From Saprospirales bacterium (GTDB lineage: Bacteria > Bacteroidota > Bacteroidia > Chitinophagales > Saprospiraceae), in assembly GCA_031398055.1 (NCBI GenBank), contig JANNMS010000263.1, forward strand, positions 5,488 to 69,487: a stretch of DNA of 64,000 nt. Reading direction: 5' to 3'. Position numbers and translations under genes: made by a program. Below the pieces are notes generated by a model. The model saw only the letters and a program-made list of their open reading frames with translations, was not told the origin of the DNA and made no database searches. How positions within the stretch are numbered: position 1 is the first letter of the stretch; each line of letters begins with the position of its first letter. Positions 27,701 to 64,000 of this stretch are shown one piece after another.

Positions 27701-30700
27701 TTGAGCGGTCTGTCGCCGGGTAATTTTTCGGTTGTGGTCAATATTTCCGGTTCGGTTTCTTGCCCCGCCGCCGCCAATTTTTCGGTTTTGGACAACCGTG
27801 TTTTGCCTTCGCTTTCGCAAAATATTTTGCCCACAACCTGCGGCGAGGCCAACGGAAACATCAATTTGACAGTCGGCGGCGGCCAATTTCCCTACCTTTT
27901 TGATTGGTCAAATGGTGAAAAAACCCAAAATCTCGACTCACTCGTCGCTGGAAATTACGCCGTTTCGGTCTCGGACGCGAACGGTTGCTCGGCTTCGGCG
28001 ACCGTCAATTTGCCCGACAACCCGACCGATTTTGACATCATTTCAAAAGTAAAACCCAACAATTTTTGTCCCGCCTCAGGCGGGACGAACGGTGAAATTG
28101 ACCTCATTTTGAGTCCGCCGGGAAATTTTTCGTTCGCGTGGTCGAACAATTTTCCCAACCTCGACCAACAAAATCTGCCGGCCGGAAACTATTCAATCAC
28201 CGTGACGCTCGGCCAACACTGCACAAAAACCGCCGATTTTTTGATTGAAAACCAGCAGATTTTGCCCGAAATTTCAGGAAAAATCAGCCCAGATATTTGC
28301 AACGGCGGCGTCGGAAACATTGATTTGACGACCGTCGGAGTCGCCCCGCTCTCCTTTTTTTGGTCAAATGGCGCGGCAACCGAGGATTTGACAAACCTAT
28401 TTTCTGGCAATTTTTCAGTCACCGCGACGGCTGCAAATGGCTGCACGGCCACCCAAAATTTTTCAGTCAGAAACAACTCCAACACATTCACTTTCAACGG
28501 TTTAGCAACAGAAAACACGAGTTGCACCAGCCCGAACGGCACCGTTTTTTTAACTTTAAATCCAAGTCAACCGGCGTCTGGAAATTACATTTTTTTGTGG
28601 TCAAACGGCGCGACGACCCAAAATTTGGGCAACCTGCCGCCCGGCAATTTTTCGGTGACGATTTCGGATGGCGGCACCTGCAGCGCCGCCGCAAATTTTT
28701 TGGTGGAAAACAAAACGCCCGCCCCCAAAATTTCCGGCACGGCTACCGACGTAAAATGTTTTGGTGAAAAAACGGGCGCGATCAATTTTTCAATTTCCGA
28801 CGGCCAACCGCCCTATTTTTTGGATTGGTCGCCCGCTGTCGCTGACCCAAATTCACCACAAAATTTGCCTGCCGGAAATTACAATTTGACCGCGACCGAC
28901 GCGGTGGGCTGTTTTTCGACCGCCAATTTTTCGGTTGCCGAACCCACCGCCGCCCTCGATTTTCAATGCCAAAAAATTTCGGACGTTTCGATTCCCGGCA
29001 CGGCAGACGGCGGGGCGCAGCTGTTTTTTGACGGTGGAACGATGCCATATTTTTTCGATTGGTCGCCCGGCGGCGGCCAGCCGTCGGCAGTTTCCGGGGA
29101 CGTTTTTGACTTAAATAATTTGCCTGCCGGAAATTTTTCGGCCACCGCGACCGATGCCAACGGCTGCACCGCCACCTGCGATTTTCAAATTTCAACCACG
29201 ACCTCAAATTGCCAAACAGCCGTCGGCACGATGGACATTTTAGCAAAAAGAATTTGTGGAAATGGTTGTTTTTCAGCGACTTACAACCCAACCGGGCAAA
29301 TTTTGGACGCCGACGACGGCTTGCAATTTATTTTGCACACGGGCAGCGGCACTCAAATTTTGGGCGAAATCGCCCGCGCCGACCAGCCAAATTTTTGCTT
29401 CGACTCCTCAAAAATGGACTTCGGGATCACTTATTTTGTCTCCGCCGTCGCCGGAAATTTGGACGCCGCCGGGCAAGTTGATTTGTCCGAAAAATGCACG
29501 GTCGTCGCGCCGGGAACGCCCATTTTATTTTTAAAAATTCCGACAGCAACCATCGCCCCGCACTCGGATTTGAATTGTTTTTTTAAAAAAATCAGCCTCG
29601 CGGGTTCGTCCGATTTGCCGGGCGCAAGTTTTTCATGGTCGGCTGAAAATGGTGGACAAATTTCGAGTTTGACCAATTTTCCAAATATTTTGGCAACGGC
29701 TGCGGGCGATTTCCAATTAATTATTTCGGTAAATGGTTGCGCTGACACCACAACAACGTCAGTCGCGGATTTTTCAAACCTCATTTCGGCAGCGATTTTG
29801 GCAGACCCGGCGGCGGTTTTGGATTGCAAAATCAAGACCGTGAATTTGTCCGCCGAAGTTTCCGGCAGCCAAAATTTGGAAATAAATTGGTTGGCGAACG
29901 GCACGCAATTTTCTCAAAATCAACAAATTACGGTCGAAGCGGCGGGCATTTTTTCACTCGTCGCGCTCGATACTTTGACTTTTTGCAGCGACACCGCGAG
30001 CCTCGAAATTTTGGAAAATGAAAAATATCCGCCGCTCGTCGTCGCGCCCGTTTTGCCATTGACCTGCGCCGATTCTATCGTGATTTTGCAGGGCAGTTCC
30101 CCGATTCAAAACATTGATTTTCAATGGTTTCAGTTGGTTGGGGCGGACACAATTTTGGTAAAAAATGGGGCAACGGCTGCCGTAAAATTTCCCGGGAAAT
30201 ACCTGTTTTTTGGCCGCGACAAGACGAACGGCTGCACCAATTTCACCTCCCAAACCGTCCTCGCCGACCTGCAAAAACCGATTGCCGATGCCGGAAATTC
30301 TTTCATTTTGGATTGTTTTTCGCCCACTCAATTTTTGGACGGCAGTAATTCGGCGAGCGGCGGCGGCATTTTGCAATATTTTTGGACAACTTTTGATGGA
30401 AATTTTGTGGCCGGAAATACAAGTTCAAAACCAGAAATCAACCATGCCGGAACCTATTCTTTGACCGTGACCGATGCCAAAAACGGCTGCACGGACACTG
30501 ATGAAATTGCAATTTTTTCAAATGCACCGACCCTCGAAACAGTTGTCGTCCAACCAAAATGTTTTGGTGAAAAAGGCAGTTTGGATTTGTCAAAAACGAC
30601 GGGGGGCACGCCCCCGTTTCGATTTTCGGCGGACGGCGGCTCGACCTTTTCTGACCAAAAAATTTACCAAAATTTGGCCGACGGCGACTACTTTTTGGTG

Positions 30701-31300
30701 GTTCAAGATGCGCTCGGCTGCGAAGATTTGGACACCACGCGCCTCGCCGCGCCACCACTTTTGACCCTCGATTTGACTGCCGAAAAAACCCTTGTTTTGG
30801 GTGAAACCTATCAAATTTTGGCAAATTCCAATGTTTTTCAGGCAAATTTGGCCTCCATCGTTTGGACACCGACGGCGGGTTTGAGTTGTTCAAATTGCCT
30901 CGAACCGCTCGCCCAGCCCACCAAAACGACCCGTTTTAAAATTGAAATTGAAGACCTCGCGGGCTGCCGTGCTGCGGATGAAATTTTGTTGAAAGTGGTG
31001 CGCGGCCATGTTTTTGTGCCCAATGTTTTCAATCCGAACAGCGGTTTGGGCAATGAAAAATTGACCGTTTTTGCCGACCCGCGCAGCGTGAAAAAAGTAA
31101 AATCGCTGCTGGTTTTTGACCGCTGGGGCGAGCGCGTTTTTGAAAATTTTGATTTTCAACCGAATGACCAGGCGGCGGGTTGGGATGGGAAATTTCTGGG
31201 AAAAAATCTTGCGCCAGCCGTGTTTGTTTGGGTGGCGGAGGTGGAATTTTTTGATGGGGAAATTGAGATTTTGAGTGGGGACGTGCTTTTGCGACGATGA
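24704..31300 (+). CDS. Giant cell-surface protein (2198 aa) with ~15 SprB-type repeats and a gliding-motility-associated (type-B T9SS) C-terminal domain
   Basis: Signal peptide. Repeats follow C-x-x-x-NG-x-I...F-x-WSNG...L-x-AGNY-x-V-T-V-x-D-x-x-GC. C-terminus VFVPNVFNPNS...LLVFDRWGERVFE...GWDGKF. Confidence 0.9.
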   Translation: MKKSFLHFLVVAQFISPILLFGQCPPPGMPVAGGTCLTAPLICENLDGYCATISSTNNPVAFPGCAGSNLNNDDWLAFIAGSTQISIQISPSNCVLMPPFMGLQGAIYSSCSNQTANVLDVQCPCSTVPFILESANFVVGQTYFLVLDGCISNVCDFSIDIISGSTGAAAPPNPGNISGPNSVCENSTSIFSLAAVPNASNYSWTLTPAIGDLDPENSPNPTTNITWTSTGTTQLCVTASNNCQSNPTQSCKTITVNPSPTAEMSGGGLLCDSNPPAVPVEIEFSGNAPWTFIYSKNNVNQSAITTSSNPYILQITMPGDFELISVTSGGCPGTVSGSAIVSGSDFDISGMTENSTCGLENGSINLSISGGSPDFIFYWSNGENIEDLDELLPGNFSVTVFDDNGCSATENFTVGNTFVNINISGNTSPNTFCGSTGNGSIETNISPADPNFQFDWSNGENTQNIADLLPGNYQITVILGSTCSETANFTVAEEPDLPEIDATTNPTICNLENGNIEISISGGVAPFNFDWSNGSFFQNQTDLAAGNYTVTVSGSDDCTAELSIFLENENPEITIFESIEPNTNCLAGNGSISIFLDPVDSPTGQPYQIFWSNGDTGFSIFDLPAGDFSVSINDAGCTAEANFLVENETTSPLFQVFSEPEICGASNGSIEIEIVDGLAPFDFEWSNGSFLQNQNSLAAGNYILTATDFGGCTATLEVEILNESVPPTATAVPTAEICGQNNGAINLTATTSNLPMTFLWSNNAVSEDLSGLPAGNFTATVTDFLGCSTTVSATVGSTDFLINISATTSPNTSCATPNGSIFVNTSPQNPPFGNYNFAWSSGETTQNLTNLAAGNYILTVSAGGNCTATDTFSVANQAVFPEISENISPTICNDSSGAIDLTISPAALSPCIFSWSNNSKTEDLTNLTAGNYTVTVTAANGCTVSKTENVPNNSSNFQISGTATPVVRCDSPNGSVVLTVSPPSGNYVFLWSNGATTPDLSGLSPGNFSVVVNISGSVSCPAAANFSVLDNRVLPSLSQNILPTTCGEANGNINLTVGGGQFPYLFDWSNGEKTQNLDSLVAGNYAVSVSDANGCSASATVNLPDNPTDFDIISKVKPNNFCPASGGTNGEIDLILSPPGNFSFAWSNNFPNLDQQNLPAGNYSITVTLGQHCTKTADFLIENQQILPEISGKISPDICNGGVGNIDLTTVGVAPLSFFWSNGAATEDLTNLFSGNFSVTATAANGCTATQNFSVRNNSNTFTFNGLATENTSCTSPNGTVFLTLNPSQPASGNYIFLWSNGATTQNLGNLPPGNFSVTISDGGTCSAAANFLVENKTPAPKISGTATDVKCFGEKTGAINFSISDGQPPYFLDWSPAVADPNSPQNLPAGNYNLTATDAVGCFSTANFSVAEPTAALDFQCQKISDVSIPGTADGGAQLFFDGGTMPYFFDWSPGGGQPSAVSGDVFDLNNLPAGNFSATATDANGCTATCDFQISTTTSNCQTAVGTMDILAKRICGNGCFSATYNPTGQILDADDGLQFILHTGSGTQILGEIARADQPNFCFDSSKMDFGITYFVSAVAGNLDAAGQVDLSEKCTVVAPGTPILFLKIPTATIAPHSDLNCFFKKISLAGSSDLPGASFSWSAENGGQISSLTNFPNILATAAGDFQLIISVNGCADTTTTSVADFSNLISAAILADPAAVLDCKIKTVNLSAEVSGSQNLEINWLANGTQFSQNQQITVEAAGIFSLVALDTLTFCSDTASLEILENEKYPPLVVAPVLPLTCADSIVILQGSSPIQNIDFQWFQLVGADTILVKNGATAAVKFPGKYLFFGRDKTNGCTNFTSQTVLADLQKPIADAGNSFILDCFSPTQFLDGSNSASGGGILQYFWTTFDGNFVAGNTSSKPEINHAGTYSLTVTDAKNGCTDTDEIAIFSNAPTLETVVVQPKCFGEKGSLDLSKTTGGTPPFRFSADGGSTFSDQKIYQNLADGDYFLVVQDALGCEDLDTTRLAAPPLLTLDLTAEKTLVLGETYQILANSNVFQANLASIVWTPTAGLSCSNCLEPLAQPTKTTRFKIEIEDLAGCRAADEILLKVVRGHVFVPNVFNPNSGLGNEKLTVFADPRSVKKVKSLLVFDRWGERVFENFDFQPNDQAAGWDGKFLGKNLAPAVFVWVAEVEFFDGEIEILSGDVLLRR
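25740..29200 (+). repeat. In-frame tandem array of ~75-80-aa SprB repeats in which two subtypes alternate
   Basis: 15 occurrences of the [FL]xWS[NSP] motif at regular spacing. 'SPNTxC..NGSI' units alternate with 'ICxxxNGxI..GGxxPFxF' units. Confidence 0.85.
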
Positions 31301-54291: not shown

Positions 54292-57200
54292 TTGAACTCA
54301 AAAATCATCATCCGCGCGAGCCTCTTTTTATGCCTCGCAACCATCCTCACCTTTTGCAAATCAACCAAAACTAAACCAACCACCATGCTTTCTGGCGATT
54401 ACCAAACCGATTGGGCGCGTGTCGACACCCTCGAAATACAGGGCTTGCCGCAGTCCGCGCTCGAAATTGTTGAAAAAATTTACACCGCCGCAAAACGCGA
54501 CGGCAAACCCGAACAAGTCCTCAAAACCTTGATTTTCAAATCAAAATACATTTCCCAGCGCGAGGAAGACGGTTTTGAAAAGGCAATTTCGATGCTCGAA
54601 AATGAACTTTCCGGCCTGCCGATGGCCGAAAACGCCATTTTACATTCGATGCTCGGCGAACTTTATGGCCAATATTTACAGCAACGCGGCTGGCAAATCC
54701 GCCAACGCACGCCTCTCGCCTCAGGCGAGACCGGCGATATTTTAACTTGGACGGCCGCCGACATCGAAAATCAAGCGTTTCAACATTATCTAAAATCGGT
54801 TGAAAATGAAAATGCGCTGCTCGCCGTGCCCATTTCAAATTACAAAGAAATCACGCTGCCCGGCCTCGGCGACACTTTGACCGCGCCGCTCCGCCCCACC
54901 CTTTTCGATTTTTTGGCGCACCGAGCGCTTGATTTTGCCGGAAACCCGGCCAATTATTTGACCGAACCGGAGTACAAATTTGAACTTTCGCAGCCCGTCG
55001 CGTTCGCCCCGGCGGCGGAATTTGTCGCCGCAAAATTTGAAACCGAGGATAAAACTTCCCGCAAATTTTTGGCCGTCCAACTTTTCCAACGCGTCCTGAA
55101 AACGCATTTAAATGATGCCGACATTTCAAATTTGGTCGTCGCGGATTTGCAGCGTTTGAAATTTTCATATCAAAATTCGACGCTCGAAAACAAGCAGGAA
55201 CTGTTCAAAAATGCCCTCGAAAACCTGCGAAAAAAAGCCGCCGCCCACCCGTCCGATGGCGGAGTCAACCCGGACAAAAATAAATTTTCGCAAGTGCACG
55301 ACCTCGAACGTGGTGCCGGGCACCCGTCCGAGGCCGAGGTCGTCTTCGAATTGGCCTCGCTCCTTGTCCAAACTGCCGAACCCGACGACCCGAAAAAACA
55401 ACTGCCCGCCGCTGCAAAAATTTGCCGTGAGGCGATTGCAAAATACCCCAAATCGTTCGGGGCAAAACAGTGCGAAACCTTGCTTTTGCAAATCACCCGC
55501 CCCGATTTGAGCATTCAAATTGAGAATAATTTGCTACCCGAACAGCCCGGTTTGACGAACGTGAATTTTAAAAATTTGAAAAAAATCTGGGCAAAAGTGG
55601 TCGCTTTTGACCTGCGCGATGCCAACCCAGAAAATCGGTACGAGCCTGATTTTCAGAAAAAATTGATTCAAAAACTCAACGAGCAACCAGCCGCCGGGCT
55701 GCGCGAGTGGAATTTTCAAACCGAAGAAGATTTCCGCTCGCACCGCACCGAAATCAGTTTTGGTGGCATGCCGCTCGGAAATTACGTTTTGTTAGTCTCT
55801 GAAAATCAACAGTTTAACCCTGAAAATGGGCGTGTTTGCTTGGCGGATTTTACCGTGACGAATATCTCCGTTTTGAAATTTCAAAATCAAGGAACTGAAA
55901 ATTTCATCGCCGCGCACCGCAAAACCGGCCAACCGATGCCGGGCGTTCACCTCGAATTTTTCAAAAATAATTGGGGCAGCGGCCGCCTGAATTTTGACAA
56001 AATCGGCGAAGCAAACACCGACCAAAACGGCCTGGCGAAGTTCGATTTTCCAAAAAACGAATATTATCAAATTGAAATCCGTGCGAGTTTCGACCGCGAC
56101 ACGGCTTGGGTTGGCAGCAGCACGACGGGCTATTCCGAGGACAATTCGCCGGGTCGCCGCGAGGTCAAAATTTTCACCGACCGCGCGATTTACCGCCCCG
56201 GCCAGCTCGTGTATTTCAAAGGTATCGCGCTGAGTTTTGACAAAAAAAATGTGCCGAGCATCGTCAAAAATGAAAAACTGGACTTCATTTTTAAAGATGC
56301 AAATTATCAGGAAAAAGGACGCATCACGTTGACAACCAACGAGTTCGGGACTTGCAACGGCGTTTTCACCGCGCCGTCGGGCGGGCTGACCGGCCAAATG
56401 CAAATCGAAGTGGAGAACTTGGGAAGTACTTCATTTTCCGTCGAAGAATACAAACGGCCCAAATTCGAGGTCGTTTTTGAACAGCCAAAAGAGTCGTTCA
56501 AACTTGGCCAAAAAGTGAAAATCAGCGGCACGGCCAAAAATTTTGCAGGCTCTTCGGTCGGCGACGCGGCGGTCAAATTTGTGGTCAATCGCGAGGCACA
56601 TTTCCCATTTTGGGGCTGGGGCGGCTGGGGTTTCAAAAGTTTTTTCCCGCGGACGAACAACCGCCAAATTGCCAGCGGAACGATAAAAACCGACGCGGAC
56701 GGACGTTTTGAAATCGAATTTTTGGCCGAACCGGACGTGGCAATTGACAAAAAATTGAAGCCAAATTTTGGTTTTTCGGTCACGGCGGACGTGACGGATT
56801 CGAACGGCGAGACTCAAACTGGCTCGAAAACCATCGAAATTGGCTACGTTTCGTTGCTCGTTGATTTGAAATTGCCGGACGAAATCGAACTCGATAGCCT
56901 GCGGAACGTGCCTTTGAAAATTACCAATTTGGCGGGCGAGCCGCAAAAAGTCTCCGGGCAAATTTTGCTGACGCGGCTCGTCGAACCGGGCAAAATTTTT
57001 CAAAAAAGATACTGGGACGAACCTGAAATTTGGACAATTCCGGAGGCAGATTTTCGCCGGGACTTCCCAAATTTTGCATTTAAAAATGAAGAAAACCCGG
57101 AAAAATGGGGAAGACAAGATTTTGTAAATTCAATAAATTTCGAAACCAAAAATTCAGGTTCGGAGAAATCCGAAATTGATTTGAACCTCGGAAAAACGCA

Positions 57201-60200
57201 GCCCGGCTGGTACGAAATGAAGTTGAAAACCCGCGACCCGTTCGGCGAAGAAATTGAAATCAAAAAGATTTTCCGGGTTTGGGATTCAAAAAAACCGGAG
57301 ACGAAATTTCAGCAACCTAATTTTTATTTGACCAAAAAAACGGCGCAGCCTGGCGACGCCGCAAGTTTCAAAGTTGGCTCGGCTACGGGCGCGACGTACT
57401 TTTTTGTTTTGCAAAATAATTTGGACAACCAATTGAAAACCAATTGGATAGAAGCAAAACCGACGAAGGATTGGCCTTTGAAAATTACTGAAAATGACAA
57501 AGGCAATATCGGTTTTGAATGGTTTGCGGTGCGCGAAAACCGCCTGTTTTCGGGCAGCGAAACCCTCGAAATTCCGTGGTCAGAAAAAGAATTGACACTC
57601 AGTTTTGAAACTTTCCGGGACAAATTATTGCCGGGGCAGGACGAAACTTGGCGCATCAAAATCACTGGAAATAAAAAAGAAAAAGTCGCCGCCGAACTCG
57701 TCGCAACGATGTACGATGCCTCGCTCGAACAATTTCGGCAGCACGATGTGCAAAGAATTTTCTTTCCGACTTTTTCAAATTATTCTGCACAATTTCAATC
57801 TGACGATATTTTTGGAATTTCGCAGGGGCAGACGCATTTGTTTAAAAATGAAGAATTTGGGCGGGGCGGCGAGCGCAATTTTCGGGCATTGAATTGGTTT
57901 GAATTTTATTTTGGAAGAAGAATGTATGCCATGGCTCGTCAAAAAAACCACAATGCACCGATGGATGCGCAGTCGGAACAGTTGGAAATGGCAGCCGCAC
58001 CGATGGCTGATAGCAATTATGCAGCGGGTGGAAATGTGGCAAGTACAGACTTAAAAATGGACGCGGGGAACATTTTACCATCTGCCCCAACTCCAAAACC
58101 TGCGCCGCCCGCGCTGCGGAAAAATTTGAAAGAAACGGTCTTCTTTTTCCCCGATTTGCGGACGGACAAAGACGGAAACGTGGTGTTGAATTTCAAAATG
58201 AACGAGGCATTGACACGGTGGAAATTTTTGGCATTTGCCCACACGACAGATTTAAAAACTGGAATTTTGAAACGCGAGGTTGTAACACAAAAGGATTTGA
58301 TGATTTTGGCAAATCCACCACGTTTTTTGCGAGAGGGCGACGAGGTCGAATTTTCGGCCAAAATTTCAAATTTGTCGGGCAAGGAAATTTCAGGAAAAGC
58401 GGTGCTGAATTTGGTGGATGCCGTTTCCGAAAAAGCGGTGAACTCGGATTTTTCACTTTCTGAAAATGCAAAAACGATCAATTTCAAAGTCGCCGCGGGG
58501 CGTTCGGAAGCCATTTTTTGGAAATTAAAAGTGCCTGCCGGAAAATCGGAAGCGATACTTTGGCAGGTTTCGGCGGCGGCTGGAAATTTCACGGACGGCG
58601 AGGAAAATGCGCTGCCCGTTTTGCCCAACCGGATGCTCGTGACCGAGACGATTCCGCTCGCAGTTCGTGGAAATCAGGTGAAAAATTTTGAGTTTTCGAG
58701 CCTCGCGGACACCAAATCTTCGACGCGGGTGGCACATCGGTACAGTTTGGAATTTACCTCAAATCCAGTTTGGTATGCTGTCCAAGCGTTGCCTTACCTG
58801 ATGGAATTTCCCCACGAATGCAACGAGCAGATTTTTAACCGGTTTTATGCGAACGCGCTCGCGCAAAATATTACCCAAAAAATGCCAAATATCAAGCGTG
58901 TTTTTGACCGTTGGAAAGGCGACCCGAATGCTTTGAAATCCAATCTTTCGAAAAATCAGGAGTTGAAATCTGCGATTTTGGAAGAGACGCCGTGGGTTTT
59001 GGACGCGCAAAACGAGGAGCAGCAAAAGCAAAATATCGCGCTGCTTTTTGATTTGAACCGGATGTCCGCCGAGCGCGAAAAAACGTTGGCGATGCTCGCG
59101 GCGCGGCAAAATGCGGACGGCGGCTGGTCGTGGTTTCCGGGTTCGCCGTCGAATGAATACATCACGGAATACATTGTTTCCGGGTTCGGGCATTTGGAAA
59201 AACTGGGGGCGGTTTCGATAAAAAACGAGCAAGAAACCAGTGAAATGCTGCAAAAAGCATTGGTTTTTTGCGAAAAATCTACCCAAAAACGCTACGCCGA
59301 AATTGAAAGATTGGTGCAGGAAGGCAAGGCAAAATGGACGGACGACCACCTCGGCGGGTTCATTTTCAATTTTTATGCACGGTCGTTTTTTGAAAAACAC
59401 CCGACGGACAAAATTTCGACCTGGGTTTTTGAGCAAGCGGAAAAGTATTGGTTGGGCAAGGGTTTGTACCAAGAAGGTCTGATTGCGTTGGTTTTGAAAC
59501 GGGCTGGCCGGGCGGAATCTGCCACGAAAATCACGAATTCTTTGCGCGAACGTGCTTTGGTAAAAGATGAATTGGGGATGTATTGGCCGAACGAATGGGG
59601 CTATTTTTGGTACCAATTGCCCATCGAAACGCAAAGTTTGATGGTCGAGGTTTTTGACGAGGTGACTGGCGACAAAACTGCGGTCGAAAACCTGCGGATT
59701 TGGCTTTTGAAAAACAAGCAGACCAACCGTTGGGCAAGCACAAAAGCGACCGCCGAAGCCGTGACCGCGCTGCTTTTGCACGGTGAAAATTGGTTGGAAA
59801 ATACCCGCCCCGTCAAACTGAGTTTGGGCGGAAAAACGGTGCAACCTGCTGAAATTGAGGCTGGTACGGGTTATTTTAAAAATGTTTGGTCGGGCGAAGC
59901 TGTGAAAAACGACTTTGCAAAAATCAAAGTTGAAAACCCAAATTCGAACATCGTTTGGGGCGCGGCGTATTTTCAATATTTTGAGGATTTGGATAAAATC
60001 CAGGTTTTTCAAAAAACGCCGCTGACGATTTTGAAGCAATATTTTCGGGAAGAATCGACGCCGTCAGGTTCGAAATTGACCCAAATTTCGGAAGCCACTA
60101 AACTGAAACCGGGCGACAAATTGAAAGTCAGAATCGAAATCCGGGTGGACAGGCCGATGGAATTTGTGCATTTGAAAGACTTGCGCCCGGCGGGTTGCGA

Positions 60201-60438
60201 ACCGACAAATGTGCTTTCCGGCTATCGATATCAGGATGGTTTGGGATATTATGAAAGCACGAAGGATTTGGCGACGAATTTTTTCATGGATTATTTGCCG
60301 CGCGGGACTTTTGTTTTTGAATATCCGATGGTGGCAAATTTGAAAGGGAATTTTTCGACGGGCATCACGACGATGCAGTGCATGTACGCTCCGGAGTTTT
60401 CGAGCCATTCGAAAGGTGAACGGATTTCGATTGAATAA
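54292..60438 (+). CDS. Alpha-2-macroglobulin family lipoprotein (2048 aa) with a thioester motif
   Basis: TTG start followed by the lipobox LATILTFCKS. MG-domain-like repeats. Thioester motif CNEQ within FPHECNEQIFNRFYANA at 58819-58830. The C-terminal receptor-binding-like region has the typical length. Confidence 0.85.
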   Translation: MNSKIIIRASLFLCLATILTFCKSTKTKPTTMLSGDYQTDWARVDTLEIQGLPQSALEIVEKIYTAAKRDGKPEQVLKTLIFKSKYISQREEDGFEKAISMLENELSGLPMAENAILHSMLGELYGQYLQQRGWQIRQRTPLASGETGDILTWTAADIENQAFQHYLKSVENENALLAVPISNYKEITLPGLGDTLTAPLRPTLFDFLAHRALDFAGNPANYLTEPEYKFELSQPVAFAPAAEFVAAKFETEDKTSRKFLAVQLFQRVLKTHLNDADISNLVVADLQRLKFSYQNSTLENKQELFKNALENLRKKAAAHPSDGGVNPDKNKFSQVHDLERGAGHPSEAEVVFELASLLVQTAEPDDPKKQLPAAAKICREAIAKYPKSFGAKQCETLLLQITRPDLSIQIENNLLPEQPGLTNVNFKNLKKIWAKVVAFDLRDANPENRYEPDFQKKLIQKLNEQPAAGLREWNFQTEEDFRSHRTEISFGGMPLGNYVLLVSENQQFNPENGRVCLADFTVTNISVLKFQNQGTENFIAAHRKTGQPMPGVHLEFFKNNWGSGRLNFDKIGEANTDQNGLAKFDFPKNEYYQIEIRASFDRDTAWVGSSTTGYSEDNSPGRREVKIFTDRAIYRPGQLVYFKGIALSFDKKNVPSIVKNEKLDFIFKDANYQEKGRITLTTNEFGTCNGVFTAPSGGLTGQMQIEVENLGSTSFSVEEYKRPKFEVVFEQPKESFKLGQKVKISGTAKNFAGSSVGDAAVKFVVNREAHFPFWGWGGWGFKSFFPRTNNRQIASGTIKTDADGRFEIEFLAEPDVAIDKKLKPNFGFSVTADVTDSNGETQTGSKTIEIGYVSLLVDLKLPDEIELDSLRNVPLKITNLAGEPQKVSGQILLTRLVEPGKIFQKRYWDEPEIWTIPEADFRRDFPNFAFKNEENPEKWGRQDFVNSINFETKNSGSEKSEIDLNLGKTQPGWYEMKLKTRDPFGEEIEIKKIFRVWDSKKPETKFQQPNFYLTKKTAQPGDAASFKVGSATGATYFFVLQNNLDNQLKTNWIEAKPTKDWPLKITENDKGNIGFEWFAVRENRLFSGSETLEIPWSEKELTLSFETFRDKLLPGQDETWRIKITGNKKEKVAAELVATMYDASLEQFRQHDVQRIFFPTFSNYSAQFQSDDIFGISQGQTHLFKNEEFGRGGERNFRALNWFEFYFGRRMYAMARQKNHNAPMDAQSEQLEMAAAPMADSNYAAGGNVASTDLKMDAGNILPSAPTPKPAPPALRKNLKETVFFFPDLRTDKDGNVVLNFKMNEALTRWKFLAFAHTTDLKTGILKREVVTQKDLMILANPPRFLREGDEVEFSAKISNLSGKEISGKAVLNLVDAVSEKAVNSDFSLSENAKTINFKVAAGRSEAIFWKLKVPAGKSEAILWQVSAAAGNFTDGEENALPVLPNRMLVTETIPLAVRGNQVKNFEFSSLADTKSSTRVAHRYSLEFTSNPVWYAVQALPYLMEFPHECNEQIFNRFYANALAQNITQKMPNIKRVFDRWKGDPNALKSNLSKNQELKSAILEETPWVLDAQNEEQQKQNIALLFDLNRMSAEREKTLAMLAARQNADGGWSWFPGSPSNEYITEYIVSGFGHLEKLGAVSIKNEQETSEMLQKALVFCEKSTQKRYAEIERLVQEGKAKWTDDHLGGFIFNFYARSFFEKHPTDKISTWVFEQAEKYWLGKGLYQEGLIALVLKRAGRAESATKITNSLRERALVKDELGMYWPNEWGYFWYQLPIETQSLMVEVFDEVTGDKTAVENLRIWLLKNKQTNRWASTKATAEAVTALLLHGENWLENTRPVKLSLGGKTVQPAEIEAGTGYFKNVWSGEAVKNDFAKIKVENPNSNIVWGAAYFQYFEDLDKIQVFQKTPLTILKQYFREESTPSGSKLTQISEATKLKPGDKLKVRIEIRVDRPMEFVHLKDLRPAGCEPTNVLSGYRYQDGLGYYESTKDLATNFFMDYLPRGTFVFEYPMVANLKGNFSTGITTMQCMYAPEFSSHSKGERISIE

Positions 60439-60507
60439 CAATCGCTTCTCAAACTTTTAAAATACTATGTTTTTCAAAATCGTAAATAAAAAATTTAAAA
60501 ACCATAA

Positions 60508-61011
60508 ATGTCAAAATTAAAATTTCAAGAATTTTTAGAAAGATTTCCGCCCGTCGAAATGCCAATCACACTTGGCGAAGATGATCACCTCGTTTTTTCG
60601 GCTGAAAATTTGCCAATTCCGGATTTCCTGATTGCTGAATTTATCCAACCCATCGAACCTGAGGAGGACGATGAATTCACGGAATATGTCTCGTGTTTTT
60701 CGATTGCTGGCACCGAAAAATTTGAAGCAGTGGTTTATTGGAAAGCCAGTTTGTTGATTTACGAATACATTTTGGCCACTTTTTCAAAAATCGGGCAGCC
60801 AATAAATCGAAAAGTGATTGCCAAAACAAAGGTCACCGGGGAAAAAATCAACCGTGCGGTGGCGACAATTGACGAAGAATTGGTGGTTTTTGTGGCCGAA
60901 GGTTTGGCCGCAGCCAAAGATGACAGTTTCGACCCGGAAACGACTAAAACTTACAATTTTGAAATTTTGGCAAATGGAGAAATTATCCAGTACAACGCCG
61001 CTTTAAATTGA
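60508..61011 (+). CDS. Hypothetical cytoplasmic protein
   Basis: 167-aa ORF of ordinary composition, followed by a clean terminator. No recognised motif. Confidence 0.5.
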   Translation: MSKLKFQEFLERFPPVEMPITLGEDDHLVFSAENLPIPDFLIAEFIQPIEPEEDDEFTEYVSCFSIAGTEKFEAVVYWKASLLIYEYILATFSKIGQPINRKVIAKTKVTGEKINRAVATIDEELVVFVAEGLAAAKDDSFDPETTKTYNFEILANGEIIQYNAALN

Positions 61012-61039
61012 GCATTTTATTTAATTTTTTTTAAAAAAA

Positions 61040-61069
61040 GCCGAATGATGCAAAATCATTCGGCTTTTT
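61040..61069 (+). terminator. Rho-independent terminator
   Basis: gccgaatgat-gcaaa-atcattcggc followed by TTTTT. Confidence 0.8.
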
Positions 61070-61176
61070 AATTTTGATGTCTTCGCCGGGACAACTTTCA
61101 TTTCATTTTTTGTGAAAAAATCCGTTCGCCAAAACCCCTGATTACTTTTGCCGCAGTCAAAAAAAATCTCCATCGA

Positions 61177-61683
61177 ATGAAAGTTACCGAAGCACTGACC
61201 GACCTGACCGAGCAAATTTTGCGATTGCTCGACCGCATCGAACCTGAAAATTACCGCCGCCCGCTGCGTGAATTTGACGGCTCGACGCTCGGCCAACATT
61301 TCCGCCACATCCTCGAATTTTATCAATGCCTCGCCGTCGGCGCACTGCAAAATGATGGCGTGGATTACGCCGCCCGACAACGGAATTTATTGTTTGAAGA
61401 AATTCCCGGCGCGGCGGCAGCGGCGTTCGATGACTTTCTTTTTGATTTGCAAAACTTTGATTGTCAGCAAGTTATCGCTGTCCGGGCGGAGTTTGGCAGT
61501 TGCGACCGACCGGCATATCAAAGCACGGTCGGGCGCGAATTGATGTTTGTTTATGACCATGCGATCCATCATTTGGCGATGATAAAAATCGGTTTGCGGA
61601 CCAATTTTCCAGAAATTCGAACGGAGAAAAACTTGGGCGTTTCGCCTTCGACCACAAAAAGTAAAATGAAAATGGAGGCGTAA
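61177..61683 (+). CDS. DinB-superfamily (four-helix, His-triad) protein
   Basis: LGQHFRHILEFY and ...DHAIHHLAMI give the His-triad spacing typical of DinB_2. Confidence 0.6.
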   Translation: MKVTEALTDLTEQILRLLDRIEPENYRRPLREFDGSTLGQHFRHILEFYQCLAVGALQNDGVDYAARQRNLLFEEIPGAAAAAFDDFLFDLQNFDCQQVIAVRAEFGSCDRPAYQSTVGRELMFVYDHAIHHLAMIKIGLRTNFPEIRTEKNLGVSPSTTKSKMKMEA

Positions 61684-61687
61684 TTTT

Positions 61688-62323
61688 TCACCGCGAAAAC
61701 TTCCTGACAATCGTCAAACCTGACCCGCCGACCGCCGAAAACATCAAATCCAGCGACCCGCTTTTTTCGTTTGCAACAAATGTCTGCCGCGCTGCAAAAC
61801 CCGGAATTGTTTCCAAAGCCACCGACCATTTTGAATTGATGTTGAAATAAACGCCAAAAATCCAACCGAAACCCAGTGAAATTGAACTAGCACTTTGTTC
61901 CGAATTATTTTTCAAAAGCCGAAATGTTGGGGAAATCGAAACTTCTTGGCCGGTGCAAAACCAAAAATTATCGTCCAGCAAAACCCTTTTTTCGCGTCCC
62001 AGCCGAAAATCTGCACTGAAAATTGCCGTGTTTTGAACCTGTTGGTTTTGTTTTTGCCATTCAAATTCAGCGTTTCCAAACCCGCCCGAAATCCGCCGAA
62101 ACGTGTGGCTGCCTATCTTTTTTTTCAATAAAAAACTGAAAAAAGTAAACGAAACGTTGGGTTTCACGCAAAATTCCCGGTTGTGCACGATGCTGTCTTT
62201 TTGCCCAAAAACGGAAGAAAACAGGGATGAGGAATGAGGGATCAGGGATGATTTTTGCCCAGCAACTTGGCTCGAAATTGAAATTAGAAAAATGAAAATT
62301 GTGAAAACGTACCATTTTTTCAT
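61688..62323 (-). CDS. Hypothetical secreted beta-rich (outer-membrane-like) protein
   Basis: Signal peptide MKKWYVFTIFIFLISISSQVAGQ. A GGGATGA-word tract (62212-62245) is embedded just after the signal sequence. Confidence 0.5.
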   Translation of the reverse strand: MKKWYVFTIFIFLISISSQVAGQKSSLIPHSSSLFSSVFGQKDSIVHNREFCVKPNVSFTFFSFLLKKKIGSHTFRRISGGFGNAEFEWQKQNQQVQNTAIFSADFRLGREKRVLLDDNFWFCTGQEVSISPTFRLLKNNSEQSASSISLGFGWIFGVYFNINSKWSVALETIPGFAARQTFVANEKSGSLDLMFSAVGGSGLTIVRKFSR

Positions 62324-62530
62324 GTCGTAGAAATTTTTGATTTGAAAGATTGATTTTAAAAATTACAAACCAGAACGGGAAAGAAACGCAGTCCGCTCCT
62401 GTTTTTAGGATTCTTTAATTTTACTTTAAAAAAATTCAAAAAAACATATCATACTTTTACAATAATTCATTAAAATGGACATTTTAACTTAAGTGTGTGT
62501 TTGACACCATCTTATCAATAAATGCCATAA

Positions 62531-64000
62531 ATGAAAAAAATCCTTTACCTCTCTGCTCCCGAAGATTCAGCCCATCTTTCCCAACTTGACATTTTCCTCG
62601 CTCCAATCCTTGAAAACAAACTGGGGGAATTGCTCAACCACTCAAATTCGATTGAAAACAACCAAACGGAGATGCTTCGCCAAGTTGAAATTGCGGATTT
62701 GGTGCTTTGCTTACTGAGCCCAAATTTTCTGAACTCCGGTTTTTTGATGAATACGCTCGCCAAAAAAGTTTTTCAAAGGATGAACCTCGGCCAATGCGAA
62801 GTGGTCTCGCTGATGCTCCAACCTTGCAATTTAGACGATTCCGAGTTTTCCGAAATTGAAAACGTCCCAGAAAATGGAAAAGCAATTTTGGGAAAATACT
62901 GGATTGGCCGACGCTCCGAGGCGTGGGTCGGCGTGGCCAGCGGGGTGCTGAAATACTTCAAATCCGACCGCAACATTTCTGCTCAAAAAATAAAGGAAGT
63001 GGAAGAGGAAATCCAAAACCTCTTGCTCACCGAAAGAGAAATCAACGAAGCCCGGTCAAAAGGCAAACCTTTTGAATTCGACGATGAATCGTGGGAGCTC
63101 CGAGACTATGAAAATTTGCGACGCTACGGCCCCGACATTTTTGAAATGATGCGCGGCAGTTCCTTTGACACAGCCACCAATCTGGACGGCAAACTTTCTT
63201 GGATGCTTTTTAAAAAAAGGCTCTTGGCCAGGACTCAAGAAATCGAGGCATTTTCACAGGAAATGAAAATACTGATCGAAAGCAACATCAACCACCATGC
63301 CCGGATCATTTTTCTCACCGGCTATCCGGGCACAGGCAAAACAACTTTCGTCCGGATGTTTATGGAAGAAAACTCCGATGACTATGATTTTGTGCTTTAC
63401 GATTTGGAAGGTGTCAATGTCAAAAGTGCCCTGACAAGTGGTCTGGAACAGGAAAAATCAACCGAACGCTCCGTGCTCGACGTATTTGCCCAAACCATGG
63501 CTCGCGACGAAGAAAGGCTGGTCGACAGTTTCAAATTACTGATCATGCACAAAAAACAATTGTTCACAACCACTTTCATCTCGCCTGCTTTTCTCCAAAA
63601 ATTGGAGGAATTGGAATTGAAAATGAAAACGAACCCACTGGGGTTTATCGAAGTTTTCACGGTGCTCCGTGAATTGGATTATGCCGATACGTTTACCGCT
63701 TTTTTTATCCACCACCTGAACGCCGATTGTTCCAAAAAAAGGAAAGTCATTGTATTTGACAATCTGGACGTCATCCGGATGGAGCACCTCGGCAGGCATT
63801 TTTTCAAGGCATTTAGTTTGTCGTTGTGGAATGCCAACAACTTGGCGCAGAGCGGCCTTTTTGTCCACAAAGACATTGAATTTACGCGCCGGTTCAAGTT
63901 TGTTTTTTGCATGCGCGAGGCCAGTTACGAATGTATCAACCCGCACGTGGATCCCCGGATGAAACAAGTGGCCGAAATTCAGCTCCGATTCAAACAGGAA
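62531..64000 (+). CDS. TIR-like (TIR_2-type) domain fused to a P-loop STAND/NACHT-like NTPase; the 3' end lies outside the window and the ORF is not in the supplied track
   Basis: Hand translation from ATG 62531 gives 490 codons with no stop. N-terminus: ILYLSAPEDSAHLSQLDIFLAPI...ADLVLCLLSPNFLNSGF...VVSLMLQPCNL...PENGKAIL...RSEAWVGVASGV. Walker A GYPGTGKTT at 63320-63346. Walker B KVIVFDNLD. Sensor-like FVFCMRE. Confidence 0.75.
   Translation, partial: MKKILYLSAPEDSAHLSQLDIFLAPILENKLGELLNHSNSIENNQTEMLRQVEIADLVLCLLSPNFLNSGFLMNTLAKKVFQRMNLGQCEVVSLMLQPCNLDDSEFSEIENVPENGKAILGKYWIGRRSEAWVGVASGVLKYFKSDRNISAQKIKEVEEEIQNLLLTEREINEARSKGKPFEFDDESWELRDYENLRRYGPDIFEMMRGSSFDTATNLDGKLSWMLFKKRLLARTQEIEAFSQEMKILIESNINHHARIIFLTGYPGTGKTTFVRMFMEENSDDYDFVLYDLEGVNVKSALTSGLEQEKSTERSVLDVFAQTMARDEERLVDSFKLLIMHKKQLFTTTFISPAFLQKLEELELKMKTNPLGFIEVFTVLRELDYADTFTAFFIHHLNADCSKKRKVIVFDNLDVIRMEHLGRHFFKAFSLSLWNANNLAQSGLFVHKDIEFTRRFKFVFCMREASYECINPHVDPRMKQVAEIQLRFKQE

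What the first reader, a model, noticed from the sequence alone, without database searches (positions are those of the whole stretch)
62324..64000. Unlisted edge ORF encoding a TIR-like domain fused to a STAND/NACHT-like NTPase (candidate immune sensor)
The ORF track omits this gene because it has no stop inside the window. My translation from ATG 62531 is open for 490 codons.

- **TIR-like N-terminus.** The first ~140 aa follow the bacterial TIR_2 pattern. A beta-strand + 'SxxxD' start (ILYLSAPEDSAHL) is followed by the hallmark hydrophobic strand + 'SPNFLxS' (DLVLCLLSPNFLNSGF). Then come 'V(I/V)xxxLxPC' (VVSLMLQPCNL) and the 'P..GK....W......AW..VA.G' tail.
- **NTPase module.** After a coiled-coil linker come Walker A GYPGTGKTT, Walker B VIVFDNLD and an 'hhhCMRE' sensor-1-like strand. 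This is the order seen in NACHT/STAND ATPases.
- **Context.** TIR-STAND fusions are known as abortive-infection/NADase immune proteins. Here the gene sits after an AT-rich ~200-bp promoter region that looks compositionally different (by eye) from its neighbours. Nearby are small orphan genes (60508, 61177, 61688).

The sensor/repeat C-terminus and any partner genes lie beyond the window, so the system may be larger than what is visible.
Basis: partly seen in the sequence, partly recalled or inferred. Interest (0 to 1): 0.7.

Follow-up and report, generated by a model that had tools for sequence, protein, structure and literature searches.

The report
TIR-fused STAND-like NTPase, dead TIR

Summary
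**Observation: confirmed.** ATG 62531 opens a frame that runs 490 codons to the window edge. An identical contig (L002) completes it to an intact 914-aa gene.

**Interpretation: partly supported.**
- **TIR.** The N-terminus is a true TIR homologue, since relatives pass Pfam TIR_2. It is also the most degenerate TIR in its clade. It scores 15–17 bits against a cut-off of 28. The catalytic Glu column reads Leu76, there is no acidic residue in aa 60–88, and the W.D..I.PG..W loop is gone.
- **NTPase.** It has a Walker A, an FDNLD Walker B and an invariant sensor-1-like Arg462. By fold and weak HMM matches it sits near STAND, KAP and ORC-Cdc6. It is not demonstrably NACHT.
- **C-terminus.** The last ~430 aa are not repeats. 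They form the best-conserved part of the family and have no fold match in the PDB.

**Family.** It is rare, patchily distributed and absent from the curated Pfam, NCBIfam and PADLOC models. Most members lack the TIR and are coupled to a small tail-anchored membrane protein. TIR-fused members lack that partner, and one member carries pYEATS instead. Two members sit beside Lamassu- or Gabija-like genes, and one orthologue is a pseudogene.

**Verdict.** This is a new variant of a known kind, a modular STAND-like conflict system. This copy's TIR is probably catalytically dead.

The parts
62324..62530 (.). AT-rich divergent intergenic spacer between the minus-strand 211-aa ORF (61688-62323) and the TIR-NTPase gene. 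It is the presumed promoter region, but this is unverified.
   Evidence: GC is 0.27 against 0.47 for the window. Sigma-70-type hits are at chance level. There is no exact TAnnTTTG motif in the spacer.
62531..64000 (+). First 490 codons of a 914-aa gene. The remaining 424 codons lie beyond the window (L002 4572-5846).
   Evidence: Open frame. An identical contig completes it. It is identical to P0002.
62531..62974 (+). Degenerate TIR domain (aa 1-148).
   Evidence: PADLOC ThsB E=1e-8. Pfam TIR_2 scores 15-17 bits, below the cut-off of 28. The AF2 strand-helix pattern has pLDDT of about 88-97. It aligns with TIR_2-positive relatives.
62750..62758 (+). Codons N74-T75-L76, at the position where TIR NADases carry the catalytic Glu. 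No acidic residue is present.
   Evidence: The Glu column of the TIR profile aligns with Cat1 E74. The Cat1 E74A mutant is defective (PMC12162218). The query has no D or E in aa 60-88.
62975..63280 (+). Helical linker (aa 149-250). It includes a long helix at aa 151-176. It also holds the conserved pre-NTPase element (aa ~192-250) that forms the N-terminus of TIR-less family members.
   Evidence: AF2 secondary structure. HMMER matches of TIR-less relatives start at query aa ~192. Family consensus 'ASPFD..N..G.LT'.
63281..64000 (+). P-loop NTPase domain (aa 251-490), with a ~95-aa helical insert between strand 2 and Walker B.
   Evidence: AAA_22 scores 30.5 bits, above the cut-off of 27. AF2 strands lie at 259-264, 285-291, 404-410, 455-462 and 480-484. 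Foldseek finds RPP1, Cdc6, ORC, CED-4 and SAMD9.
63320..63346 (+). Walker A, GYPGTGKTT (aa 264-272).
   Evidence: G269 and K270 are invariant. G264, G267 and T272 are near-invariant across 64-67 family members.
63746..63769 (+). Walker B, VIVFDNLD (aa 406-413).
   Evidence: D413 is invariant. F409, D410, N411 and L412 are near-invariant.
63914..63916 (+). Arg462 at the end of strand 4 ('FVFCMRE'), a sensor-1-like arginine.
   Evidence: It is invariant in 64-67 members. Its position at the end of strand 455-462 comes from the AF2 model.

Best explanation
**What it is.** The window ends inside an intact, single-gene, 914-aa protein with four parts:
- a degenerate TIR domain (aa 1-148);
- a helical linker (aa 149-250);
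- a STAND/KAP-like P-loop NTPase (aa 251-490);
- a conserved, non-repetitive alpha-helical C-terminal domain of unknown fold (aa 491-914).

**The family.** It belongs to a rare family with no curated model that behaves like a modular prokaryotic conflict or defence system. The commonest form is a ~750-aa NTPase encoded next to, and translationally coupled with, a small tail-anchored membrane protein. In a minority, mostly from Saprospiraceae, an N-terminal TIR is fused and the membrane partner is absent. One member carries a pYEATS domain instead.

**Inferred mechanism, by analogy with Avs, bNACHT and plant TIR-NLRs.** The C-terminal domain senses a trigger. Nucleotide-dependent oligomerisation of the NTPase then brings the N-terminal modules together. 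In relatives that keep the catalytic Glu, the clustered TIRs hydrolyse NAD+ and abort infection.

**This copy.** Three features are shown: the Glu column reads Leu76, the W.D..I.PG..W loop is lost, and the TIR has diverged faster than the rest of the protein. From these I infer that this TIR is no longer an NADase. The protein is then either a defence gene that has lost its output, or one that keeps the TIR only as an assembly scaffold. The NTPase and C-terminal domain still carry every family-invariant residue.
For: **Gene is intact**
- 914 aa, from an identical contig and P0002.

**TIR homology**
- ThsB E=1e-8 for the query.
- Relatives P0003, P0004, P0006, L007, L008 and L010 score 35-59 bits on TIR_2, against a cut-off of 28.

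**TIR degeneration**
- The query scores 15-17 bits on TIR_2.
- The conserved Glu column aligns with Cat1 E74 and reads L76 in the query. Cat1 E74A is defective.
- There is no D or E in aa 60-88.
- The positions matching Cat1 S7 and D33 read L6 and H37.
- TIR identity to P0003, P0004 and L008 is 25-27%, against 37-46% for the NBD and C-terminus. The sister L007 shows 41% against 38-50%.

**NTPase**
- Walker A and Walker B are present, and R462 is invariant.
- Foldseek finds RPP1 at 7e-6, Cdc6 at 3e-5, SAMD9, CED-4 and Avs4.
- P0064 passes NB-ARC and L007 passes KAP_NTPase.

**Modularity**
- One member is a pYEATS fusion.
- Small membrane partners sit beside NTPase-only loci and are homologous to each other. 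The partner HMM finds non-training hits at 5e-17 and 1e-11. It finds nothing in TIR-fused loci or in the window.

**Accessory behaviour**
- Only 7 cluster representatives reach E<=1e-30 among 1.84 billion.
- No synteny with relatives, or with 80 loci of the flanking A2M gene.
- Members occur in Bacteroidota, Acidobacteriota and Chloroflexota.
- Neighbours include Lamassu LmuB, a Gabija-like pair and a transposase.
- The L001 orthologue is a pseudogene.
Against: - **No model match.** No PADLOC, NCBIfam or Pfam model captures the family. 'Defence' therefore rests on architecture and context only.
- **Thin context evidence.** Only 2 of about 15 loci examined sit beside recognised defence genes. 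The window's own neighbours (A2M, a DinB-like ORF, an OmpA-type gene) are not defence genes.
- **Weak STAND assignment.** The fold matches have modest E-values and low TM-scores. The sequence-profile search of the PDB gives only generic P-loop hits.
- **Unusual C-terminus.** It is the most conserved region of the family. That is atypical for a pathogen sensor and could mean it is the real catalytic or output module.
- **Inactivity is inferred, not measured.** The loss of NADase activity is inferred from sequence alone.
- **No selection test.** The closest relative is only 47% identical, so selection on the TIR could not be measured.
Confidence: 0.6

Rival explanations
1. The protein is an active TIR-STAND NADase immune sensor that depletes NAD+ or makes a signalling nucleotide when triggered, using a non-canonical catalytic residue.
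For: - The TIR fold and the tail motifs are retained.
- The NTPase and C-terminus keep all invariant residues, so the protein as a whole still looks selected.
- Related fused proteins keep the Glu (P0003, P0004, P0005, L008).
- TIR-AAA and TIR-Avs defence proteins are documented (PMC11350192).
Against: - The catalytic Glu column reads Leu, with no acidic residue anywhere in aa 60-88.
- Two more active-site positions and the W.D..I.PG..W loop are lost.
- TIR_2 scores 15-17 bits, against 35-59 bits in most fused relatives (P0008 scores 23).
- The TIR has diverged faster than the rest of the protein on this lineage.
- In the E. coli TIR defence systems tested, mutating conserved TIR active-site residues abolished defence (PMC11350192). 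Cat1 E74A is defective.
Confidence: 0.12
2. The family is not an immune system. It is a membrane-associated regulatory or housekeeping NTPase that works with a small tail-anchored membrane protein. The TIR and pYEATS fusions are incidental adaptor domains.
For: - There is no match to any defence model.
- Most neighbourhoods hold ordinary metabolic or envelope genes.
- The C-terminal domain is highly conserved with many invariant polar residues, more like an enzyme than a fast-evolving sensor.
- Non-immune STAND clades are common (bioRxiv 10.64898/2026.01.04.697583).
Against: - Distribution across phyla is patchy and the family is extremely rare.
- Synteny is absent.
- One orthologue has become a pseudogene while its flanks are conserved.
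- N-terminal modules are swapped, including TIR.
- Members sit next to Lamassu, Gabija-like and transposase genes.
Confidence: 0.18
3. The NTPase is better classed as a KAP-family or ORC/Cdc6-like AAA+ ATPase than as a STAND/NACHT NTPase.
For: - L007 passes the Pfam KAP_NTPase gathering score at 24.8, above the cut-off of 20.
- The best match in the viral structure library is a KAP P-loop protein at 9e-5.
- A ~95-aa insert between Walker A and B is KAP-like.
- Cdc6 and ORC subunits dominate the PDB fold hits.
Against: - The insert has no membrane helices (maximum hydropathy 0.89).
- The top fold hit is the TIR-NLR RPP1, with CED-4, SAMD9 and Avs4 also listed.
- P0064 passes NB-ARC.
- An invariant Arg at the sensor-1 position and a DxxD Walker B are STAND hallmarks. 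This criterion comes from my own knowledge of the STAND literature.
Confidence: 0.25

Closest known systems
Avs (antiviral STAND) and other bacterial TIR-STAND / NLR-like defence proteins (bNACHT)
   Same: - Single large polypeptide with an N-terminal effector-type domain (TIR), a central P-loop NTPase and a large C-terminal domain.
- N-terminal modules are swapped within the family.
- Distribution is patchy.
- Members occasionally sit in defence islands (literature).
   Different: - No Avs or bNACHT model matches above noise. Avs1b and Avs4 hit 2 of 64 members at about 1e-4.
- The C-terminal domain is non-repetitive, is the most conserved region, and has no PDB fold match.
- The NTPase has a large helical insert.
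- Most members have no fused effector and instead have a small membrane protein partner.
- This copy's TIR lacks the catalytic Glu.
Plant TIR-NLR RPP1 (PDB 7dfv/7crc)
   Same: It is the best structural match to the full-length model, at E=7e-6 over about 756 aligned columns. By known domain architecture, RPP1 also has a TIR followed by its NTPase.
   Different: - Sequence identity is 12% and TM-scores are 0.19/0.30.
- RPP1 has an LRR sensor and a catalytically active TIR.
- The query itself gets no NB-ARC HMM match at E <= 10.
Thoeris ThsB and Cat1 TIR NADases
   Same: They are the closest TIR relatives by profile. PADLOC ThsB gives 1e-8, and the TIR profile finds Cat1 (9mud) at 6e-10. The strand-C 'SP.F..S' motif and the tail motifs are shared.
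   Different: The query lacks the Glu equivalent to Cat1 E74, and the equivalents of S7 and D33. It is fused to an NTPase rather than standing alone or being fused to CARF.
KAP family P-loop NTPases (Pfam PF07693)
   Same: There is a large insertion between Walker A and Walker B. The closest intact relative, L007, passes the KAP_NTPase threshold, and the best viral fold hit is a KAP protein.
   Different: The query scores 13.6 bits, below the cut-off of 20. The insert has no transmembrane helices. Any membrane association would come in trans, from the small partner found in TIR-less members.

Membership tests
TIR domain (Pfam TIR_2 / TIR NADases) | Profile score above the curated threshold | tested here: not met
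   The query scores 15.2 bits as the whole fragment and 16.7 bits for the N-terminus alone, against a cut-off of 28. Homology is nevertheless secure by transitivity. Relatives at 29-47% identity score 35-59 bits, and PADLOC ThsB gives 1e-8 for the query.
TIR domain (Pfam TIR_2 / TIR NADases) | Flavodoxin-like alternating strand-helix fold | tested here: met
   AF2 places strands at 2-7, 32-34, 57-62 and 90-95, alternating with helices, at pLDDT of about 88-97. The top Foldseek hit is the TIR-NLR RPP1.
TIR domain (Pfam TIR_2 / TIR NADases) | Catalytic glutamate in helix C (Cat1 E74 equivalent) | tested here: not met
   The column reads L76, and there is no D or E in aa 60-88. The Glu is present in P0003, P0004, P0005 and L008. 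It is absent in the query, L007 and L001.
TIR domain (Pfam TIR_2 / TIR NADases) | Conserved 'W.D..I.PG..W' loop region and strand-A Ser (Cat1 D33 and S7 equivalents) | tested here: not met
   The query reads 'LLNHSNSIE---NNQ' and L6. L007 keeps 'TWHDHQIMPGEKW'.
STAND NTPase (NACHT / NB-ARC / nSTAND) | Walker A GxxGxGK[ST] and Walker B hhhhD..D | tested here: met
   GYPGTGKTT and VIVFDNLD are present. G269, K270 and D413 are invariant.
STAND NTPase (NACHT / NB-ARC / nSTAND) | Sensor-1 arginine at the end of strand 4 | tested here: met
   R462 is invariant and lies at the end of strand 455-462. The criterion itself comes from my own knowledge of the STAND literature.
STAND NTPase (NACHT / NB-ARC / nSTAND) | Curated HMM membership (NACHT, NB-ARC, nSTAND1-6) | tested here: inconclusive
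   Query: nSTAND3 scores 19.4 against a cut-off of 27.2, with no NACHT or NB-ARC hit. Family: P0064 passes NB-ARC at 26.4 against 23.5, while P0103 misses NACHT at 21 against 26.7. L007 instead passes KAP_NTPase.
STAND NTPase (NACHT / NB-ARC / nSTAND) | NBD followed by helical and winged-helix domains, by fold | tested here: inconclusive
   Foldseek gives RPP1 7e-6, Cdc6 3e-5, SAMD9 1.6e-4, CED-4 1.4e-3 and Avs4 3e-3, but TM-scores are only 0.15-0.43.
STAND NTPase (NACHT / NB-ARC / nSTAND) | C-terminal repeat-type sensor (TPR, LRR or WD40) | tested here: not met
   Pfam finds no repeat family. The C-terminal model (pLDDT 85, pTM 0.88) has no PDB match better than E=0.85.
STAND NTPase (NACHT / NB-ARC / nSTAND) | Variable N-terminal effector or adaptor modules on a conserved NTPase | tested here: met
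   N-termini found are TIR (6 clusters), pYEATS (P0035), unassigned extensions (P0054, P0062, P0064, P0079) or none.
Known anti-phage defence systems (PADLOC v2) | Match to a system-specific model | tested here: not met
   Only the TIR matches ThsB. The NTPase and C-terminus get P-loop-level hits in at most 12 of 64 members.
Known anti-phage defence systems (PADLOC v2) | Accessory behaviour: patchy distribution, no synteny, defence-island neighbours | tested here: inconclusive
   Patchiness and lack of synteny are met. Defence neighbours appear in only 2 loci. The window's own neighbours are not defence genes.
Known anti-phage defence systems (PADLOC v2) | Protection against phage | not testable with these tools
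   This needs a phage challenge in a heterologous host.
KAP family P-loop NTPase | Transmembrane helices inserted within the NTPase domain | tested here: not met
   Maximum 19-residue hydropathy in the insert (aa 293-403) is 0.89. The whole-protein maximum is 1.44.

The most novel reading that the evidence does not exclude
The family may be a previously undescribed modular defence system with three features:
- Its core is a STAND/KAP-like NTPase joined to a conserved C-terminal domain of new fold.
- Its output module is interchangeable. It can be a small tail-anchored membrane protein encoded in trans, a fused TIR, or a fused pYEATS domain.
- The window's copy would be a bacterial example of a catalytically dead TIR kept as a non-enzymatic assembly or adaptor module, as in animal TLR/MyD88 signalling, rather than a decaying gene.
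Probability: 0.12. Interest if true: 0.7.

Novelty: new variant of a known kind. Interest (0 to 1): 0.45.

Why it matters
TIR-STAND fusions are a well-known kind of immune protein, and prokaryotic STANDs are already known to span hundreds of clades. The architecture alone is therefore not surprising. Three things add value:

- **An uncurated family.** Its C-terminal 430 aa are highly conserved, model confidently, and have no counterpart in the PDB.
- **An apparent effector swap.** A trans-encoded tail-anchored membrane protein appears to be exchanged for a cis-fused TIR. This gives a testable handle on what the family's output is.
- **A natural series of TIR states.** It runs from Glu-bearing copies (P0003, P0004, L008), through a Glu-less copy that is otherwise intact (L007), to this strongly degenerate copy and a pseudogene (L001). 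The series could show how defence genes decay or are repurposed.

For annotation, the practical point is that calling this gene a 'TIR NADase' would probably be wrong.

Tried and rejected
- **Word-indexed homologue search.** It found only one relative. The exhaustive HMMER search was needed.
- **NCBIfam scan of the query.** Only generic P-loop noise.
- **PDB searches by sequence.** The query, the family profile and the C-terminal profile gave only generic P-loop or insignificant hits.
- **Fold search of the C-terminal domain.** Nothing significant.
- **Conserved partner by BLAST.** None was found at first. Partners emerged only after checking hydropathy and building an HMM.
- **Genome scan with the 67-sequence alignment.** It failed for lack of conserved stretches and was repeated with 10 sequences.
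- **Plasmid and phage collections.** No family member. One TIR-only plasmid hit.
- **pYEATS literature.** Nothing was found. The one 'YEATS' hit was an author name.
- **Essuman 2018 paper.** Not held.
- **Promoter, terminator and Bacteroidota -7 motif scans.** All at chance level.
- **Rfam scan of the window.** No hits.
- **Weak PDC-S06 hits.** The query's P-loop and one small partner hit PDC-S06. The family-wide scan did not bear this out, so I treat them as noise.
- **'CFLYH' versus the plant RNBS-D 'CFLYC' motif.** The resemblance is from memory and was not tested, so it is not used as evidence.
Full report
**1.

Translation from ATG 62531 is open for 490 codons to the end of the window. 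The ORF list omits it only because it has no stop in the window.

I recovered the missing part by looking up the neighbouring complete genes. A 9.6-kb Logan contig (L002, SRR20217203) is identical to window 59430-64000, with 0 mismatches in 4571 bp. It extends the gene to a stop, giving 914 aa. The exhaustive HMMER search returned the same 914-aa protein as P0002. The gene is therefore intact.

Downstream, after 125 bp, lies an unrelated 1195-aa OmpA-C-terminal protein. Upstream lies a divergent 207-bp spacer with GC 0.27, against 0.47 for the window and 0.45 for the gene. Consensus promoter and terminator scans and the Bacteroidota -7 motif are at chance level. The spacer's role as a promoter is therefore plausible but not shown.

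**2. The TIR is real but degenerate**

The evidence for homology:
- The query misses the Pfam TIR_2 threshold, at 15-17 bits against a cut-off of 28. It does match the PADLOC ThsB model at 1e-8.
- Proteins with the same architecture pass TIR_2 clearly. The scores are L008 58.9, P0004 54.4, P0003 53.3, L007 48.0, L010 37.9 and P0006 35.5 bits.
- The AF2 model of the region is confident and has alternating strands and helices.

The evidence for degeneration comes from alignments with TIR-only proteins, Cat1 and TLR1:
- There is a strongly conserved Glu column ('SDYIxxxE'). A profile search of the PDB aligns it with Cat1 E74. E74 lines the Cat1 NADase site, and E74A is defective in vivo (PMC12162218).
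- The query has Leu76 at that column, and no acidic residue anywhere in aa 60-88.
- The equivalents of Cat1 S7 and D33 read Leu6 and His37.
- The 'W.D..I.PG..W' loop is replaced by a shorter 'LLNHSNSIENNQ'.
- Relatives P0003, P0004, P0005 and L008 keep the Glu. The sister L007 (47% identity) has lost the Glu but keeps the loop.

| Comparison | TIR identity | NBD / C-terminus identity |
|---|---|---|
| Query vs P0003, P0004, L008 | 25-27% | 37-46% |
| L007 vs P0003, P0004, L008 | 41% | 38-50% |

These figures show that the TIR has diverged faster than the rest of the protein on the query's own lineage. I infer that this TIR is not an NADase. That is a sequence-based inference, not a measurement.

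**3. The NTPase**

Across 64-67 family members, G269, K270, D413 (Walker B 'FDNLD'), R462 and R501 are invariant. R462 ends strand 4 of the AF2 model, which is the sensor-1 position.

The core has five strands. A ~95-aa helical insert lies between strand 2 and Walker B. It has no membrane-like segment.

The full-length model has pLDDT 89.6 and pTM 0.80. Its Foldseek matches are the TIR-NLR RPP1 (7e-6), Cdc6 (3e-5), ORC subunits, SAMD9, CED-4, Avs4 and RdrA, all with low TM-scores. The best match in the viral library is a KAP P-loop protein at 9e-5.

The curated HMMs are ambivalent:
- The query passes only AAA_22.
- P0064 passes NB-ARC.
- L007 passes KAP_NTPase.
- NACHT and nSTAND matches are sub-threshold.

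Sequence-profile searches of the PDB give only generic P-loop matches. The fair statement is 'STAND-like, within the STAND/KAP/ORC-Cdc6 neighbourhood'. It is not 'NACHT'.

**4. The C-terminal 430 aa**

The relatives show that the region beyond the window is not a repeat sensor.
- It is the best-conserved part of the family.
- It carries many invariant polar residues: R501, N544, C617, R621, H731, E733, S804, H831, R839 and N859.
- It models confidently on its own, at pLDDT 85 and pTM 0.88.
- It has no significant PDB match by fold (best E=0.85) or by sequence.

**5. The family and its modular forms**

Among 1.84 billion cluster representatives, only 7 reach E<=1e-30 and 87 reach E<=1e-10. Six clusters have TIR plus NTPase. 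About half of the 150 listed hits are ~700-800-aa proteins that start at the query's aa ~192, so they lack the TIR. The rest match only the TIR.

One member carries a pYEATS domain instead, and several have unassigned N-terminal extensions.

No Pfam or PADLOC model covers the family, and NCBIfam gives the query nothing beyond P-loop noise. It is absent from annotated phages and plasmids.

In the genome collection it occurs in MAGs of Saprospiraceae, Chitinophagales, Croceivirga, Thermoanaerobaculia and Chloroflexia. All three TIR-fused loci recovered in that scan are from Saprospiraceae, which is probably the window's own lineage.

**6. A partner in TIR-less members**

Every TIR-less locus with readable flanks has a small ORF of 139-174 aa (309 aa in one case). 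It abuts or overlaps the NTPase gene, either upstream or downstream, and has a single hydrophobic helix, usually at the extreme C-terminus.
- Several of these ORFs are demonstrably homologous. L009 against L097 gives E=3e-12.
- An HMM built from five of them finds two non-training copies, next to the NTPase in L013 (5e-17) and in L014 (1e-11).
- The same HMM finds nothing in any TIR-fused locus or in the window.
- The partners have no Pfam match and no convincing PADLOC match.

I read this as an exchange of output module. A membrane protein encoded in trans has been swapped for a TIR fused in cis. This reading is inferred.

**7. Accessory behaviour**

- None of the window's neighbours flank any relative.
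- None of 80 loci carrying a relative of the flanking alpha-2-macroglobulin gene (55-66% identity for the closest) has the TIR-NTPase or the three small ORFs beside it.
- L007 and L001 are syntenic orthologues at 88% DNA identity. L001 carries a 2-nt insertion and a CAG-to-TAG change, so it is a pseudogene.
- One member lies directly after a Lamassu LmuB gene. The pYEATS member lies beside an OLD-TOPRIM ATPase plus a UvrD helicase, a Gabija-like pair. One abuts a transposase.
- The window's own neighbours are not defence genes.

**8. Interpretation**

The architecture, the modularity and the patchiness fit the known logic of prokaryotic STAND immune proteins. These have an N-terminal effector, a central NTPase and a C-terminal sensor. 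A recent survey counts 589 clades, of which 198 are defence-associated (bioRxiv 10.64898/2026.01.04.697583). TIR-AAA and TIR-Avs defence proteins are documented (PMC11350192).

The most likely mechanism for the family is trigger sensing, followed by NTP-dependent oligomerisation, followed by activation of the output module. In Glu-bearing fusions that output would be NAD+ hydrolysis.

For the window's gene the output module looks inactive. Either the gene has lost its function, or its TIR has become a scaffold.

Three rivals remain open and are scored in the report: an active non-canonical NADase, a non-immune membrane-associated NTPase, and a KAP/ORC rather than STAND affiliation.

**9. Verdict**

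This is a new variant of a known kind and is of moderate interest. The most useful leads are the conserved C-terminal domain of unknown fold, the swap between membrane partner and TIR, and the natural series of TIR decay.

Noticed in passing
L009 12244-12717; L011 12223-12687; L097 6305-6757; L102 417-884; L100 783-1202; L013 33-1073 (frame); L014 7445-7675: TIR-less relatives of the NTPase are translationally coupled to a small (139-174 aa), mostly tail-anchored, single-pass membrane protein family. It has no Pfam match and no convincing PADLOC match. It is absent from all TIR-fused loci and from the window.
   Followed up: partly
L095 1766-8783: A pYEATS-fused member of the NTPase family sits next to an OLD-TOPRIM ATPase and a UvrD helicase, a Gabija-like pair. 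A 139-aa ORF abuts its start, ending 1 bp upstream.
   Followed up: partly
L011 7619-12223: A TIR-less family member lies immediately downstream of a Lamassu LmuB-like SMC ATPase (PADLOC E=8e-34).
   Followed up: partly
L001 1-2169 versus L007 1735-4105: The closest orthologue in one Saprospiraceae MAG is a pseudogene, with a 2-nt insertion and a CAG-to-TAG change. Its syntenic counterpart (88% DNA identity) is intact. Both are followed by Peptidase_M16 genes, unlike the window's copy.
   Followed up: yes
Proteins P0009, P0012, P0026, P0036: Giant proteins of 1564-1928 aa contain 4-6 tandem TIR-like stretches that match the query's TIR.
   Followed up: no
Protein P0148: A 977-aa protein fuses a TIR_2 domain to a dynamin-family GTPase. 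This is another TIR-NTPase architecture, unrelated to the family studied here.
   Followed up: no
L002 4557-5843 (aa 486-914 of the gene, beyond the window end): The conserved C-terminal domain gives a confident AF2 model (pLDDT 85, pTM 0.88) but has no significant PDB fold match. It carries about 10 invariant polar residues, which suggests a pocket or active site.
   Followed up: partly
window 61688-62323 (-), 60508-61011 (+), 61177-61683 (+): Three small ORFs lie between the alpha-2-macroglobulin gene and the TIR-NTPase. The 211-aa ORF has an N-terminal signal-like hydrophobic segment and no family match. The 168-aa ORF has a sub-threshold DinB_2 match. None is conserved next to A2M in 80 related loci.
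   Followed up: partly
window 54292-60438 (+): A 2048-aa bacterial alpha-2-macroglobulin (MG2, A2M, bait region and bMG10 domains). Its closest metagenomic relatives are only 55-66% identical, so no close relative of this genome was available.
   Followed up: partly
window 1-64000: The Rfam gathering-threshold scan found no RNA family anywhere in the 64-kb window. A second very large ORF (24704-31300, 2198 aa) was not examined.
   Followed up: no
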